This document shows, piece after piece, positions 7,943 to 11,088 of a stretch of 11,088 nt of DNA (positions are counted from its first letter, which is position 1; every line of letters starts with the position of its first letter). Origin of the DNA: a virus. The notes below the pieces were generated by a model. It made no database searches, was not told the DNA's origin, and saw only the letters and a list, made by a program, of their open reading frames with translations. The stretch covers positions 1-11,088 of IMG/VR virus record IMGVR_UViG_3300029573_000021. One strand, written 5' to 3'. The position numbers and the translations under genes were made by a program.

Positions 7943-8212
7943 GTTCGTTCTTCTGAATTGGCCGCCCGGACGGGACTTTACGCCGCCCCGCGCCTGCCAG
8001 ACCGTATTACTTATTTGGTTTTGGTTTTAGGCCCCACCTGGGCCGGGCGATTGGTTAAAAGTCGTTTAGTCGTCGTAGTGTCCGTCCGGGTTGTCCGTCG
8101 TGGCATGGTCCCGTTCGTACCGCACCAGGGCGTTTTCGAGGGCCGCGGCTGCGGTTTCGTGTTCGTTCATCAGCCGTTCGGATGCACCGGTCTTCTTCGT
8201 CGTATTCGATGC

Positions 8213-8428
8213 TCATTTTCGCCCTCCTTTCTTCAAAAATTCTTGAGATCTTTTCTCAAGCCACGCCGTTACTTCGTCAAGTTTGTAACGCGGGTGTGTT
8301 CCTTTTCCTCCCAGCCCGCCGGAAAAATAAACACGGGGACAACCTTCCTTATTAAGTCGAACTAGAGAACCCTTGCTAATGTTCAGGGCCTTGCGTAGTT
8401 CCTCGCTGGTGATGTATGGTGTATTCAT
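8213..8428 (-). CDS. xis: Excisionase / AlpA-family HTH DNA-binding protein
   Basis: 71 aa. MNTPYITSEELRKALNISKGSLVRLNKEGCPRVYFSGG...YKLDEVTAWLEKR is the typical HTH_17 excisionase-family layout. It lies near the integrase. Confidence 0.75.
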   Translation of the reverse strand: MNTPYITSEELRKALNISKGSLVRLNKEGCPRVYFSGGLGGKGTHPRYKLDEVTAWLEKRSQEFLKKGGRK

Positions 8429-8485
8429 ATGTTTTTTCTTGTTTGTCTTTGATGTAAACGCTATTGCCTCTACTTCCGTTTAAGC

Positions 8486-8677
8486 CTATTCTCTGTATTC
8501 CATGATTACTTTAATTTCTGTTGATTGTTCTTCTTCGATAGCCAATAGACCGTTTTTAATTATTACTTTCGGGTATTTCTTCTTCACGGTTAATCTTTTG
8601 TTCTCCTTGTAAAAACCATGATAAAGCTCATAACGAATGATAGAGAGGTCGTTATGAACGTCCAAGCTACCAAGCAT
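8486..8677 (-). CDS. Hypothetical 63-aa protein (competes with the overlapping 34-aa ORF below)
   Basis: A 63-codon open frame in roughly 35-40% GC DNA is moderately unlikely by chance. However, ATG 8677 has no SD; the nearest GGAGG is 21 nt upstream. I recognise no family. Confidence 0.4.
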   Translation of the reverse strand: MLGSLDVHNDLSIIRYELYHGFYKENKRLTVKKKYPKVIIKNGLLAIEEEQSTEIKVIMEYRE

Positions 8678-8694
8678 TGCCAGTCAGTCATCAT
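8590..8694 (-). CDS. Possible 34-aa single-pass membrane peptide (not in the ORF track)
   Basis: Hand translation gives MMTDWQCLVAWTFITTSLSFVMSFIMVFTRRTKD*. The ATG at 8694..8692 overlaps the lipoprotein stop (ATGA). AAGGAGG ends 4 nt before the first ATG and 7 nt before the second. The peptide is a roughly 22-residue hydrophobic core followed by the basic tail TRRTK. It is too short for the open frame to be statistically convincing. Confidence 0.35.
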   Translation of the reverse strand: MMTDWQCLVAWTFITTSLSFVMSFIMVFTRRTKD

Positions 8695-8966
8695 TTAGCC
8701 TCCTTTCGTGTTATTCTCGCGGTGCCGGATATAAAGAGTTCCTCACCGTCCGGTTTAGTGACCAGATAGCCATAAATATCCTTTTTATAATCACTTATTG
8801 CCTTCACGCACTCAGGGTCGTTAGTGGAAAAAGAAATATCGCGAAGACCTGGCTGTTCGATCTTAATAATCCACTCTTTATTCCCTTCTGAAATGTGGTC
8901 ATAAGGGCGCGGATTACAGCCGCACAGAACAAGCCCGGACAAGACGAGGGCGAACAGAGCTTTCAC
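8691..8966 (-). CDS. Small lipoprotein (91-aa precursor)
   Basis: The signal peptide plus lipobox is MKALFALVLSGLVLCG|C. The GTG start overlaps the upstream stop (GTGA), and a GGAGG lies 7 nt upstream. The mature part of about 75 aa has no recognisable family. Confidence 0.75.
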   Translation of the reverse strand: MKALFALVLSGLVLCGCNPRPYDHISEGNKEWIIKIEQPGLRDISFSTNDPECVKAISDYKKDIYGYLVTKPDGEELFISGTARITRKEAK

Positions 8967-9211
8967 TTCTTCGCCTCCCCCTCGTTGATGATGGATGCCC
9001 TAACGGCAGCACTAAGAGCGCTTTTACCTGAGCTTATGAGATCTATCGCCTCCTGTAGTCTGAAACTGGAATTCATGTAAAAATAGAACTGGTCCAAAGG
9101 GACGCTAGCTTCATATTTTTTTTCTTCCTCGAAGATTGTTTCCAGTTTTGAGAGAATGACAAAAAGATCATCCTGTATTCTTATTATCTCTGCTTTTTGT
9201 TTTGCGGTCAT
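8963..9211 (-). CDS. Hypothetical 82-aa protein, predicted helical and cytoplasmic
   Basis: MTAKQKAEIIRIQDDLFVILSKLETIFEEEKKYEAS... It is translationally coupled to the lipoprotein gene. Its ATG lies 2 nt after an in-phase TAA of the upstream interrupted ORF (TAATCATG). Confidence 0.65.
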   Translation of the reverse strand: MTAKQKAEIIRIQDDLFVILSKLETIFEEEKKYEASVPLDQFYFYMNSSFRLQEAIDLISSGKSALSAAVRASIINEGEAKK

Positions 9212-9213
9212 GA

Positions 9214-9394
9214 TTATCGCTTGGCGGGTTCGGGGTTCTTCGGCTGCGTTGGGCGGGGAAGCCCGCGCCTTTTGAGAATGTCAAGGAAGGCTTCTTCTGG
9301 AGCCTTTCCGGATTCAACGCACTCTTGGATAAGTGCTTTGCTTGCCAATCTATCTGCAGCAATTTTTTTCGATGGGGATTTTGATTTCGATCAT
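9214..9394 (-). pseudogene. Small ORF interrupted at an A7 homopolymer; a 59-aa product is restored by removing one A
   Basis: ATG 9394 gives MIEIKIPIEKNCCR*, with the stop at 9352..9350. The run of 7 A on the minus strand (T7 at 9363..9369 on +) precedes a 47-codon open frame: IAADRLASKALIQECVESGKAPEEAFLDILKRRGLPRPTQPKNPEPAKR*. That frame ends at TAA 9216..9214, 2 nt before the next gene. There is no obvious SD at 9394. Confidence 0.3.
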
Positions 9395-9468
9395 GGCTGG
9401 AATGGTGGGTTTTCGCTAGTTGATGTGTATATAATTAGCGGATTTGCTCAAATAAGCCAATAGGGAGG

Positions 9469-9762
9469 TTATTTGTTATTTGCTTTTTCTCGTATTTCTC
9501 GGGCGATGTTTTCATAATCTTCGGGTGTAAGGATTACGTTTTGAGTTTGTTGAACTAAATAAGCGGTAATGATTTCAGTCATCGTCATATTCTGATCTTT
9601 TGCTCTCTTTTGAAATTTTCGGAAGAGGACGATGGGGATCCATACTGAAATCTGTTTTTTGTCTATCTTCCGTTGACTTGGCATGCGCTCAACATAATCG
9701 GTGACTAACCACCAGTCAACACTATTTTTCATCTTTTTTACATTTTTTTCATCCAGCATCAT
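9469..9762 (-). CDS. Ribbon-helix-helix (CopG/Arc/MetJ-type) DNA-binding protein
   Basis: 97 aa. KQISVWIPIVLFRKFQKRAKDQNMTMTEIITAYLVQQ fits the beta-strand/helix/helix RHH pattern. An AGGAGA lies 6 nt upstream of the ATGATG start. It is the first gene leftward of a divergent intergenic region. Confidence 0.7.
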   Translation of the reverse strand: MMLDEKNVKKMKNSVDWWLVTDYVERMPSQRKIDKKQISVWIPIVLFRKFQKRAKDQNMTMTEIITAYLVQQTQNVILTPEDYENIAREIREKANNK

Positions 9763-9790
9763 TCCGGATCTCCTAAAAGTATTCGCGTAT

Positions 9791-9840
9791 CCCCCTCTGG
9801 CAAATGGCTATTTATTTTGACCGAATGCTGACCCCCTCTG
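9791..9840. promoter_or_regulatory. Two exact 9-bp direct repeats (CCCCCTCTG) in the 90-bp divergent intergenic region; candidate operator
   Basis: The repeats are at 9791..9799 and 9832..9840, a 41-bp offset. They lie between the RHH gene (-) and the 93-aa gene (+). A 9-mer repeat inside 90 bp is unlikely by chance (order 1e-2). Confidence 0.4.
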
Positions 9841-9852
9841 CTTCTTGAAAAA

Positions 9853-10134
9853 ATGACTACCAAACTAGATGACCAGATCAAAGCCTTGGTAAATTCGGAC
9901 AAGGCTCCGCCTGTGCCGACAATAGAAAAAATAGAAGAGGAAACTAAAAGAGATGAAGTAGCTTTGGAAAAAGAGAAAAAGCATACTGTGCATCAGGCTT
10001 GGAAATGGGTGCTGGATTGTAGAAGAGAAACGGTACATCATGACTACTGGATTTTTATCAACCCTCGTTGGGTACATGGTAAAATCAGTTCAAAAATATG
10101 TTTAATCTCTAGGAAATCCTGTCAAAATGATTGA
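9853..10134 (+). CDS. Hypothetical 93-aa protein (Lys/Glu-rich N-terminus, Trp/His/Cys-rich C-terminus)
   Basis: This is the only plausible frame in the region; the antisense ORF 9865..10077 is Phe/Ser-rich junk. It is followed 67 nt downstream by a strong + strand intrinsic terminator. There is no clear SD and I recognise no family. Confidence 0.5.
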   Translation: MTTKLDDQIKALVNSDKAPPVPTIEKIEEETKRDEVALEKEKKHTVHQAWKWVLDCRRETVHHDYWIFINPRWVHGKISSKICLISRKSCQND

Positions 10135-10201
10135 AAAACGATGAGAATGTGATATAAAAGTGCTTTCCTGAATAAGGATCCTTTCTGTATTCATTCTTTT
10201 T

Positions 10202-10520: not shown

Positions 10521-11088
10521 ATGGCAGGCATCATCAAACGCAACAATAAATGGGTGGCCGTCTTCCGGTCTCTGGACGGCAAAGAGCTGCGAAAGACAAC
10601 CGGAATCGACGTGGTTCCCAGGGCGCTTCTCCCGGGAGCGAATAAGAAATCGGTCATGTCTCAAAATGAAGCCCGGGCTCGTCTCGTCGCCCAGGAGATG
10701 GAGAAGGAAGCCCGCTATGGGGTTTTTGACCTGGACAAGGTGAAGGCCATTGCCGGAGATCAAGCGGGCGTGCTGAAAGCCACCATGAACGGCATGACGG
10801 TGAGCCGGTTCCTGTTTGACTGGCTGGACGGACGGAAAAACAAGAAGCGGGCCTATGAGCGGGACGGCATGGCCGTCCGCCGGCTGCTGGCGTACCTCGG
10901 AGACCGACGGAATATGCCCCTGGCCGCCTTGAATAAAGGCATGGCTAAAGATTTTGTAGAAACTGAATTAGAGCGCGTTTCCGCAGGTACCGTCATCCGC
11001 TACGTGTCCACGCTTTCCACGGAGTTCACTTCCCTGCTCCGCCGTCATGGCATCGTGGAAGACGAGCCTACAGAGGTGAAGGGGGACC
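10521..11088 (+). CDS. int: Tyrosine recombinase / phage integrase, N-terminal 189 aa (runs off the right edge; the catalytic domain is not visible)
   Basis: Absent from the ORF track because it has no stop in the window. Hand translation gives MAGIIKRNNKWVAVFRSLDGKELRKTTGIDV...MTVSRFLFDWLDGRKNKKRAYERDGMAVRRLLAYLGDRRNMPLAALNKGMAKDFVE.... This is the typical arm-binding N-terminus (K/R-R-x-x-x-W-x-x-x-F/Y-R) followed by a SAM-like core-binding region. The context (xis and phage genes) agrees. Confidence 0.75.
   Translation, partial: MAGIIKRNNKWVAVFRSLDGKELRKTTGIDVVPRALLPGANKKSVMSQNEARARLVAQEMEKEARYGVFDLDKVKAIAGDQAGVLKATMNGMTVSRFLFDWLDGRKNKKRAYERDGMAVRRLLAYLGDRRNMPLAALNKGMAKDFVETELERVSAGTVIRYVSTLSTEFTSLLRRHGIVEDEPTEVKGD

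What the first reader, a model, noticed from the sequence alone, without database searches (positions are those of the whole stretch)
8486..8694. Two mutually exclusive readings exist downstream of the lipoprotein gene: an SD-coupled 34-aa membrane peptide or an SD-less 63-aa ORF
The lipoprotein's last codons contain AAGGAGG, followed by ATGATG overlapping its TGA. That frame encodes MMTDWQCLVAWTFITTSLSFVMSFIMVFTRRTKD, one hydrophobic helix plus a basic C-terminal tail. This resembles the shape of Hok/Fst/TisB-like toxins and of small holin or antiholin-like peptides. The ORF track instead reports a 63-aa ORF in another frame (8677..8486), whose ATG lies 21 nt from the nearest SD. Initiation signals favour the peptide and ORF length favours the 63-mer. 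Overlapping dual coding is also possible. Standard gene callers would miss the peptide.
Basis: seen in the sequence. Interest (0 to 1): 0.6.

Follow-up and report, generated by a model that had tools for sequence, protein, structure and literature searches.

The report
Unannotated membrane micropeptide gene in Akkermansia phage
Downstream of a small lipoprotein gene in an Akkermansia muciniphila phage, the real gene is a 34-residue single-helix membrane peptide that gene callers miss, while the 63-residue ORF found in databases is an annotation artefact; what the peptide does is still unknown.

Summary
AAGGAGG lies at 8705..8699. ATGATG overlaps the lipoprotein's TGA at 8694..8689. There is a 34-aa ORF at 8694..8590 and a 63-aa ORF at 8677..8486.

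Comparison with 41 related Akkermansia-phage loci settles the choice between the two readings. In 38 of 41 loci a 23-38 aa single-helix ORF overlaps the lipoprotein stop. These ORFs fall into five sequence types (A-E), representing at least three unrelated families.

Types A and B are 67% identical in DNA. The peptide frame stays open and conserved (dN 0.32, dS 1.76; 0 of 20,000 random-substitution trials reach the observed similarity). In type B the 63-aa frame has two stops and no ATG.

The 63-mer is therefore a composite. Its first 30 codons are the peptide gene read out of frame. Its last 33 codons (GTG 8587..8486) are a remnant of the N-terminal extension of a gene that is deleted in this window.

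Databases hold the 63/68-mer but never the type-A peptide. I found no match to Hok, Fst, TisB or holin families, no antisense RNA family, and no nearby lysis cassette. The lipoprotein and the peptide can each be lost separately.

Function is inferred only: an inner-membrane accessory peptide, possibly for superinfection exclusion. First readers of this scan noted the same gene pair on other genomes.

The parts
8963..9211 (-). 82-aa upstream gene. Its stop overlaps the lipoprotein's GTG start (GTGA). This slot is variable in relatives (Bro-N/ANT antirepressor-like, RHH, HTH_17 or other small genes).
8691..8966 (-). Lipoprotein gene (91 aa; signal peptide plus lipobox, invariant Cys17). An ORFan family confined to Akkermansia phages.
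   Evidence: no Pfam/PHROG/NCBIfam/PADLOC hit
8699..8705 (-). Shine-Dalgarno AAGGAGG inside the lipoprotein's last codons (RKE), 4 nt before the first ATG and 7 nt before the second ATG of the peptide gene.
8590..8694 (-). The real gene: a 34-aa single-pass membrane micropeptide (type A). Its ATG overlaps the lipoprotein's TGA (ATGA at 8694..8691). The hydrophobic helix spans roughly residues 8-29 (8673..8608).
8486..8587 (-). GTG-start 33-aa ORF, 2 nt after the peptide's TAA. It is a remnant of the optional N-terminal extension (KKYPKVIIKNGLLAI...EQSTEIKVIM) of a 90/118-aa gene whose body is deleted in this window. Its coding status is uncertain.
8486..8677 (-). The 63-aa ORF, which is an artefact. 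Codons 1-30 are the peptide gene read in another frame; codons 31-63 are the GTG-start remnant.
8213..8428 (-). Next downstream gene: a 71-aa HTH_17 / excisionase-like DNA-binding protein.

Best explanation
The window is the early/lysogeny end of a temperate Akkermansia muciniphila phage. On the minus strand a leftward operon runs from an RHH regulator gene through an 82-aa gene, the lipoprotein gene and the 34-aa gene into xis-like, recombination and replication genes.

Shown: the 34-aa ORF (8694..8590) is a genuine protein-coding gene. It has a strong SD embedded in the lipoprotein's last codons and an ATGA stop/start overlap. Ribosomes finishing the lipoprotein, or binding the SD, therefore start on it. 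The product is one hydrophobic helix with a short acidic N-terminus.

Shown: the 63-aa ORF is not a gene. Its 5' half is the peptide gene read out of frame. Its 3' half begins at GTG 8587, two bases after the peptide's stop, and is what remains of an N-terminal extension of a downstream gene that is deleted here.

Inferred: the peptide inserts into the inner membrane, N-terminus out and C-terminus in. It acts there on a host or phage membrane component as an accessory function. The most likely role is superinfection exclusion or another phage-phage or phage-host conflict function, next to but not strictly dependent on the lipoprotein. I put this functional part at about 0.35-0.4 and the gene-structure part at about 0.9.
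For: Conserved slot: in 38 of 41 evaluable related loci an ORF of 23-38 aa with a single hydrophobic helix overlaps the lipoprotein stop (ATGA, or TAATG in L057-L059). This includes the isolated Akkermansia phage DTMo-2021a and lipoproteins down to 66% identity.

Sequence types: there are five types (A-E). A/B are homologous and D/E are homologous, so at least three unrelated families exist. All reach transmembrane-grade hydrophobicity: KD 1.8-2.97 against a null 99th percentile of 1.81.

Purifying selection: types A and B differ at 35 of 105 nt with no indel. The peptide frame is open in both, with BLOSUM62 score 102-103, dN 0.32 and dS 1.76. None of 20,000 random-substitution trials reaches that score.

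The 63-aa frame: in type B it has two stops and no ATG, with BLOSUM score 35.

Downstream start: the position of GTG 8587 is ATG in L005, L006, L008, L031, L042 and L051, always 2 nt (in L031, 8 nt) after the peptide stop.

Peptide survives loss of the lipoprotein: it is retained in frame in L051 (recombination between two AAGGAGGTGAA repeats) and in L042 (GTG start).

Initiation signal: the SD is among the strongest in the window.

Context: a low-GC (38-45%) cassette next to the int/switch region. The host is identified by 92% DNA identity to an Akkermansia phage and by A. muciniphila protein records.
Against: One contig (L027) carries a 4-nt slip (ACTGACTG to ACTG) that breaks the type-A frame. 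Two contigs (L034, L036) lack the peptide altogether, so it is dispensable.

Many of the 41 loci are near-identical copies of a few phages from different samples, so the number of independent observations is much smaller than 41. The strength of the case rests on the five types and on the A/B comparison.

Nothing ties the peptide or the lipoprotein to any known function. There are no family hits. The lipoprotein model has low confidence (pLDDT 60.7) and gives no significant fold match.

It is not known whether the operon is expressed in lysogens or only after induction.
Confidence: 0.75

Rival explanations
1. The peptide and the lipoprotein are obligate partners: an inner-membrane peptide plus an outer-membrane lipoprotein made in fixed ratio through ATGA coupling, forming one envelope-located exclusion or receptor-masking device.
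For: They are adjacent and overlapping in 38 of 41 loci, including lipoproteins only 66% identical. Coupled translation is suggested by the SD inside the lipoprotein's codons.
Against: Each occurs without the other. L034 and L036 have the lipoprotein only; L042 and L051 have the peptide only, retained in frame. The same lipoprotein subtype (KYHGDNRYY variant) is followed by type C in L011/L030/L033 and by type D in L012/L031/L035. Type D also sits away from the lipoprotein in L002/L013.
Confidence: 0.2
2. Only the act of translating the short ORF matters. It would be a relay that carries ribosomes from the lipoprotein gene to the next gene, and the peptide itself would have no function.
For: The ORF always overlaps the upstream stop, and the next gene starts 2 nt after its stop or overlaps it. 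Unrelated sequences fill the slot.
Against: There is amino-acid-level purifying selection between types A and B. All five types are single hydrophobic helices far above the background, which a mere relay would not require. L034 and L036 couple the lipoprotein directly to the next gene without it.
Confidence: 0.08
3. The peptide is a type I toxin of the Hok/Fst/TisB kind, or a small holin/antiholin that depolarises the membrane.
For: Size and shape fit: one helix, with a charged tail in type A. Many such toxins also have no detectable sequence family.
Against: There is no Pfam hit to Hok, Fst, TisB, Ldr, Ibs or holin families at E <= 0.1. No Rfam antitoxin RNA was found. No excess of promoter-like sites, and none on the opposite strand. 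No stable mRNA fold (z = 0.30). The gene is translationally coupled inside an operon rather than standing alone. The charged tail is not conserved. The endolysin (Amidase_3) lies about 10 kb away in the late region.
Confidence: 0.07
4. The 63-aa ORF is the real gene, alone or together with the peptide (overlapping dual coding).
For: It is the longest ORF. Gene callers report it, and it stands in GenBank as a hypothetical protein. It is open in all type-A loci.
Against: It has no SD. Its first 30 codons have two stops and no ATG in the homologous type B and are absent in types C-E. In relatives a start codon sits at the position of GTG 8587. Its C-terminal tail differs by a 1-nt indel between this window (MEYRE) and the common L003 type (MDTENRLKRK).
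Confidence: 0.03

Closest known systems
Small single-pass membrane proteins of bacteria and phages found by comparative genomics and ribosome profiling (e.g. E. coli AcrZ, MgtS, MgrB, SgrT, KdpF, CydX; human-microbiome and global smORF catalogues: bioRxiv 10.1101/494179, PMC11364881)
   Same: Under 50 aa, one hydrophobic helix, missed by standard gene callers, strong SD, and recognised through conservation of frame. Such proteins typically act by binding larger membrane proteins (my own knowledge of this literature).
   Different: No sequence relationship. Phage-borne. Sits in a slot where unrelated peptides replace one another. No partner or phenotype is known.
Phage superinfection-exclusion membrane proteins and lipoproteins: T5 Llp, phi80/N15 Cor, Streptococcus TP-J34 Ltp (PMC3952083), P22 SieA (PMC10883804), T4 Imm, HK97 gp15
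   Same: Small lipoprotein and/or small inner-membrane protein encoded in the early or lysogeny region of a phage, in a low-GC accessory cassette. The mature lipoprotein (about 75 aa) is similar in size to Llp and Cor.
   Different: No sequence or fold similarity was detected. No receptor or exclusion phenotype is known. The peptide is much shorter than SieA, Imm or gp15.
Type I toxins Hok/Gef, Fst, TisB
   Same: Length and single-helix shape; type A has a charged C-terminal tail.
   Different: No family hit, no antisense RNA, no own promoter or structured leader; translationally coupled within an operon; the tail is not conserved.
Modular 'boundary sequences' at gene junctions of mosaic lambdoid phages
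   Same: Short conserved junctions at which modules are exchanged. Here the motif is ACAGAAGGAGG(Y)GAAGAA|GTGA before the lipoprotein and ACGAAAGGAGG..AA|ATGA after it. A precise deletion between two AAGGAGGTGAA copies is seen in L051.
   Different: Here the junction is at the same time the SD, the C-terminal KE(A/V)K(K) codons, and the overlapping stop/start.

Membership tests
Hok/Gef type I toxin (Pfam PF01848) with Sok antisense RNA | Sequence match to the Hok/Gef profile (about 50 aa, N-terminal helix, conserved periplasmic Cys region) | tested here: not met
   Pfam scan at E <= 0.1 gives no family for the 34-aa peptide.
Hok/Gef type I toxin (Pfam PF01848) with Sok antisense RNA | Cis-encoded antisense RNA and a highly structured mRNA that controls translation | tested here: not met
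   No Rfam match at E <= 1 in 8200..9400. The fold of 8740..8560 is no better than shuffles (z = 0.30). No promoter-like site on the opposite strand.
Fst / TisB / Ldr / Ibs type I toxins | Sequence match to the family profile; stand-alone gene with its own promoter and an sRNA antitoxin | tested here: not met
   No Pfam hit and no Rfam hit. The gene overlaps the upstream stop by ATGA within an operon.
Fst / TisB / Ldr / Ibs type I toxins | Toxicity on overexpression (membrane depolarisation) | not testable with these tools
   Needs an expression experiment.
Holin / antiholin | Location in a lysis cassette next to the endolysin; late expression | tested here: not met
   The Amidase_3 endolysin lies at 18621..19151 of the phage record, about 10 kb away in the late region. 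The peptide lies in the early leftward operon next to the int/switch region.
Holin / antiholin | Match to a known holin family | tested here: not met
   No Pfam or PHROG hit.
Bacterial lipoprotein (for the upstream gene) | Signal peptide with lipobox L-x-[GA]-C and an invariant Cys at +1 | tested here: met
   MKALFALVLSGLVLCGC; Cys17 is invariant, and the variants LGGC, LCAC and LSGC all keep the pattern.
Llp / Cor / Ltp superinfection-exclusion lipoproteins | Sequence or fold similarity to a known member | tested here: not met
   No Pfam, PHROG, NCBIfam or PADLOC hit. The AF2 model has pLDDT 60.7 and gives no fold match with E <= 0.001 in PDB or BFVD.
Llp / Cor / Ltp superinfection-exclusion lipoproteins | Blocks adsorption or DNA entry of the same or related phages | not testable with these tools
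   Needs plating and adsorption assays in A. muciniphila.
Conserved small membrane protein gene (operational definition) | Frame open, start position conserved, purifying selection, and a TM-grade hydrophobic segment in diverged relatives | tested here: met

The most novel reading that the evidence does not exclude
Akkermansia phages keep a dedicated slot, flanked by recombination-prone SD/stop-start junctions, in which unrelated single-helix micropeptides (at least three families, 23-38 aa) are swapped. The slot would be a fast-evolving micropeptide arm of a phage exclusion or counter-defence system acting at the inner membrane, beside an outer-membrane lipoprotein. That would make it a new class of micropeptide-based phage-phage conflict gene in an important gut commensal.
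Probability: 0.25. Interest if true: 0.65.

Novelty: new member of a known kind. Interest (0 to 1): 0.4.

Why it matters
It corrects a systematic annotation error. In type-A loci the 63/68/120/148-aa 'hypothetical proteins' of Akkermansia muciniphila prophages (e.g. GKI07887.1; the 68-mer is seen on 371 contigs) carry 30 spurious N-terminal residues or are wholly spurious. The conserved 34-aa membrane peptide is never called.

It adds a family of phage micropeptides in a health-relevant gut bacterium.

It provides a clean natural example of how comparative genomics decides between overlapping readings. It also shows how SD-containing junction repeats let small modules be swapped or deleted precisely.

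If the peptide or the lipoprotein proves to exclude phages, they would be the first such functions described for Akkermansia phages, as far as the searches here show.

Tried and rejected
- **Family searches:** Pfam, PHROGs, NCBIfam and PADLOC gave nothing for the peptide types, the lipoprotein or the 33-aa remnant.
- **HMM search:** the lipoprotein profile against 1.84 billion representatives found only 2-3 true clusters. The three long hits (P0030-P0032) are multi-repeat proteins matched on short beta-hairpin-like stretches, which I regard as spurious.
- **Structure:** the AlphaFold model of the lipoprotein has pLDDT 60.7 (beta-beta-alpha-beta-beta). Foldseek against PDB and BFVD gave no match at E <= 0.001.
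- **Genome contigs:** both scans with the lipoprotein found nothing. The family is therefore absent from the GTDB species representatives scanned, or is masked there.
- **Peptide too short for some tools:** I used DNA patterns instead.
- **tblastn:** the peptide against 50,697 phage records gave no match at E <= 1.
- **Signals:** the promoter/terminator scan showed no excess over shuffles, Rfam gave nothing, and the RNA fold was not significant.
- **Literature:** searches found no description of this module.
- **AGG start codons:** I considered whether one matters here; no in-frame AGG start is needed for any reading.

Full report
**Observation**

The window is the first 11,088 bases of a 35,645-base IMG/VR virus record. 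The features lie on the minus strand.
- The lipoprotein ORF (8966..8691, GTG start, 91 aa) ends with CGA AAG GAG GCT AAA TGA.
- AAGGAGG occupies 8705..8699.
- ATGATG follows at 8694..8689, and the first ATG shares its last two bases with the lipoprotein's TGA (ATGA overlap).
- The ORF 8694..8590 gives MMTDWQCLVAWTFITTSLSFVMSFIMVFTRRTKD.
- The 63-aa ORF runs 8677..8486. Its ATG is 21 nt past the SD and has no SD of its own.

**Context**

The DNA is 92% identical over parts to Akkermansia phage DTMo-2021a. Identical or near-identical proteins are recorded in Akkermansia muciniphila genomes.

The minus strand carries a leftward operon, in this order:
- an RHH/Arc-like gene (9762..9469);
- an 82-aa gene;
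- the lipoprotein gene;
- the 34-aa ORF;
- an HTH_17 excisionase-like gene (8428..8213);
- small genes;
- a phrog_3657 protein and a PD-(D/E)XK exonuclease;
- replication genes.

An integrase fragment lies on the other strand at 10521 onward. The stretch 8200..10200 has 38-45% GC against 52-62% elsewhere in the window. About half of the genes in the operon have a recognisable SD, and the peptide's SD is among the strongest.

**Comparative test**

Scans with the lipoprotein as query gave 12 viral loci and 22 metagenome loci. DNA patterns from the peptide genes added five more viral contigs. A tblastn search gave the isolated phage DTMo-2021a. Two diverged lipoprotein clusters from an HMM search gave four more contigs.

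Of 41 loci with a lipoprotein homologue and enough downstream sequence, 38 have a 23-38 aa ORF whose start overlaps the lipoprotein's stop. The overlap is ATGA, or TAATG in L057-L059. Each of these ORFs encodes one hydrophobic helix.

| Type | Sequence | Loci |
|---|---|---|
| A | MMTDWQCLVAW... | 13 |
| B | MITDWQSLIVWVFITNSLSFIMNLIQFLVNIDKD | 3 |
| C | MIDLLTIILSTISITLCIFVLLTTKNHD, some with a 10-residue extension | 12 |
| D | MNDGVLLILLGGIIVFLMLIISNLDGR and variants | 9 |
| E | MNQDEFLIILNCFIIVMILCTAN | 1 |

A and B are homologous. D and E are homologous, judging by their shared flanking DNA. A/B, C and D/E show no similarity to one another.

The best 19-residue Kyte-Doolittle windows are 1.8 (A), 1.81 (B), 2.69 (C) and 2.97 (D). 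The null set of 339 stop-to-stop segments of 25-45 codons in the phage record has a 99th percentile of 1.81 and a maximum of 2.04.

Many loci are copies of the same few phages in different samples. The weight of the argument therefore rests on the distinct types, not on the count.

**Frame test**

Types A and B differ at 35 of 105 positions and have no indel.
- In the peptide frame both are open. 18 of 34 residues are invariant across the A/B alignment. The BLOSUM62 score is 102-103, with dN 0.32 and dS 1.76.
- In 20,000 trials where 35 random substitutions were put into the type-A gene, the frame stayed open in 29% of trials and the score was never reached.
- In the 63-aa frame, type B has no ATG at the corresponding place and two stop codons. 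The BLOSUM62 score is 35.

Types C, D and E have nothing resembling the 63-mer's first half.

**What the 63-mer is**

The 63-mer's codon 31 is GTG 8587, two bases after the peptide's TAA. At exactly this position L005, L006, L008, L042 and L051 have ATG (TAA-CT-ATG), and L031 has ATG a few bases further on. Those ORFs begin either MNKKYPKVIIKNGLLAI... or MNKEQTIV....

The segment KKYPKVIIKNGLLAI..EQSTEIKVIM is an optional N-terminal extension:
- in L010, L031 and L042 it runs in frame into a 90-aa protein family (M[DE]K.KSIV.LLIELDK...), giving 118 aa;
- in L006 and L051 it runs into an unrelated 112-aa family (MDLPHE...).

In the window, homology to L010 stops right after ATCATGGA, and the ORF ends five codons later (MEYRE*). 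The most common relative (L003 type) has a 1-nt difference there and ends MDTENRLKRK*. So the window's 33-aa ORF (8587..8486) is a remnant.

Between the window and L031 nearly all differences in this segment change the amino acid (my reading of the sequences). I therefore leave open whether it is translated to any purpose.

The 63-aa ORF is thus the peptide gene read out of frame, joined to this remnant.

**Annotation**

An exact look-up in a 15-billion-protein collection gave the following:
- the 63-mer is present (P0003 on 4 contigs; another 63-aa member on 55);
- the 68-mer is present (371 contigs; GKI07887.1, hypothetical protein, Akkermansia muciniphila);
- 120- and 148-aa versions of downstream genes are present, carrying the same spurious 30 residues;
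- the type-A peptide, type C, type D and the 33-aa remnant are absent.

Type B, where the competing frame is closed, is present (DAP17447.1, 37 contigs). In L056-L059 the gene calls leave a gap of about 100 nt where the peptide lies.

**Relation between lipoprotein and peptide**

- L034 and L036 have a lipoprotein with a swapped C-terminus, followed directly by the 90-aa gene, and no peptide.
- L027 has a 4-nt slip (ACTGACTG to ACTG) that breaks the type-A frame. This could be a real mutant or an assembly error.
- L051 lacks the lipoprotein. The upstream gene is joined to the type-B peptide exactly as expected from recombination between the two AAGGAGGTGAA copies that flank the lipoprotein gene in L005.
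- L042 lacks the lipoprotein but keeps the type-C peptide in frame behind the lipoprotein's GTG.
- One lipoprotein subtype is followed by type C in some loci and by type D in others. Type D also occurs further downstream in L002 and L013.

The two genes are usually neighbours but are separable modules. The junctions upstream and downstream of the lipoprotein share a motif (ACAGAAGGAGGYGAAGAA|GTGA and ACGAAAGGAGG..AA|ATGA). This motif is at once the SD, the last codons (KE[AV]K[K]) and the stop/start overlap. The gene upstream of the lipoprotein also varies: 82 aa, Bro-N/ANT 263-270 aa, RHH 80 aa, or HTH_17 71 aa.

**Function**

Nothing known matches.
- The peptide types, the lipoprotein and the remnant have no Pfam, PHROG, NCBIfam or PADLOC hit.
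- The lipoprotein family is tiny.
- Its model has low confidence and no significant fold match.

Against a type I toxin: there is no Rfam RNA, no promoter-like site on the opposite strand and no excess of such sites, no stable fold, and the gene sits inside an operon with translational coupling. Against a holin: the Amidase_3 endolysin is about 10 kb away in the late region.

What remains is inference from anatomy:
- a short acidic N-terminus (D at position 3 or 4 in all types);
- one helix;
- a short polar tail, basic in type A and the long form of C, which suggests N-out/C-in insertion in the inner membrane;
- a position in a low-GC accessory cassette beside the lysogeny switch;
- replacement by unrelated peptides of the same shape, as seen for genes in phage-phage or phage-host conflict.

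I therefore favour an accessory inner-membrane peptide that acts on a membrane component, with superinfection exclusion as the most likely role (about 0.35-0.4). An obligate lipoprotein partner follows at about 0.2, a mere translational relay at about 0.08, and a toxin or holin at about 0.07.

**Known versus new**

Small single-helix proteins missed by annotation are a well-known kind in bacteria and phages (bioRxiv 10.1101/494179; PMC11364881). Phage lipoproteins and small membrane proteins that exclude superinfecting phages are also known (PMC3952083; PMC10883804; bioRxiv 10.64898/2026.03.26.714494).

This is a new, family-less member of that kind. It has a clear case of mis-annotation and an unusual swap-slot architecture. 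First readers of this scan noted the same lipoprotein-peptide pair on other genomes. Those notes are unchecked, and I did not use them as evidence.

**Limits**

Counts of loci are inflated by repeated sampling of the same phages. The host assignment rests on similarity to one isolated phage and on database names.

Noticed in passing
window 8055-8216 (minus strand), compared with L003:3660-3870: The small acidic gene after the HTH_17 gene (MSIEYDEEDRCIR...DNPDGHYDD; 51-62 aa and intact in relatives) carries a 35-nt deletion in the window. This splits it into two frames (8216..8055 and 8170..8066). It is either a pseudogene or an assembly error.
   Followed up: partly
window 8699-8705 and 8967-8990; L005, L051, L042: Gene junctions on both sides of the lipoprotein share a motif that combines the SD, KE(A/V)K(K) codons and the stop/start overlap. 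In L005 two identical 11-nt copies (AAGGAGGTGAA) flank the lipoprotein gene, and L051 is the exact deletion product. These look like module-exchange boundaries.
   Followed up: partly
window 8486-8587; L006, L010, L031, L042, L051: The same roughly 17-28-residue leader (MNKKYPKVIIKNGLLAI...) is fused in frame to two unrelated downstream proteins (the 90-aa IVxLLIELDK family and the 112-aa MDLPHE family). Its DNA is conserved, but its substitutions are mostly non-synonymous. It could be a regulatory or leader element rather than a protein part.
   Followed up: partly
L005, L006, L026, L030, L035, L051 (about 750-1150 nt upstream of the lipoprotein): Another small single-helix ORF of 48 aa (MSGNVMLVFFLLAVLFG..C..GI[IV]EGCRRT.K.IL.NI...) lies next to the integrase in several relatives. 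It is not present in the window.
   Followed up: no
L007, L011, L030, L037 versus L002, L009: The type-C peptide exists in a 28-aa form and in a 38-aa form. The stop TAA is changed to CAA, and the extension overlaps the start of the next gene in another frame.
   Followed up: no
P0030-P0032: The lipoprotein profile weakly matches many repeats of long beta-propeller-like repeat proteins (LIKVNSSGVLDTTF...). This probably reflects only a shared beta-hairpin pattern.
   Followed up: no
G000 10521-11129: The integrase ORF is interrupted by a run of N (10 N in the record), so its apparent 202-aa length is an artefact of masking or assembly. Relatives have 395-399 aa.
   Followed up: no
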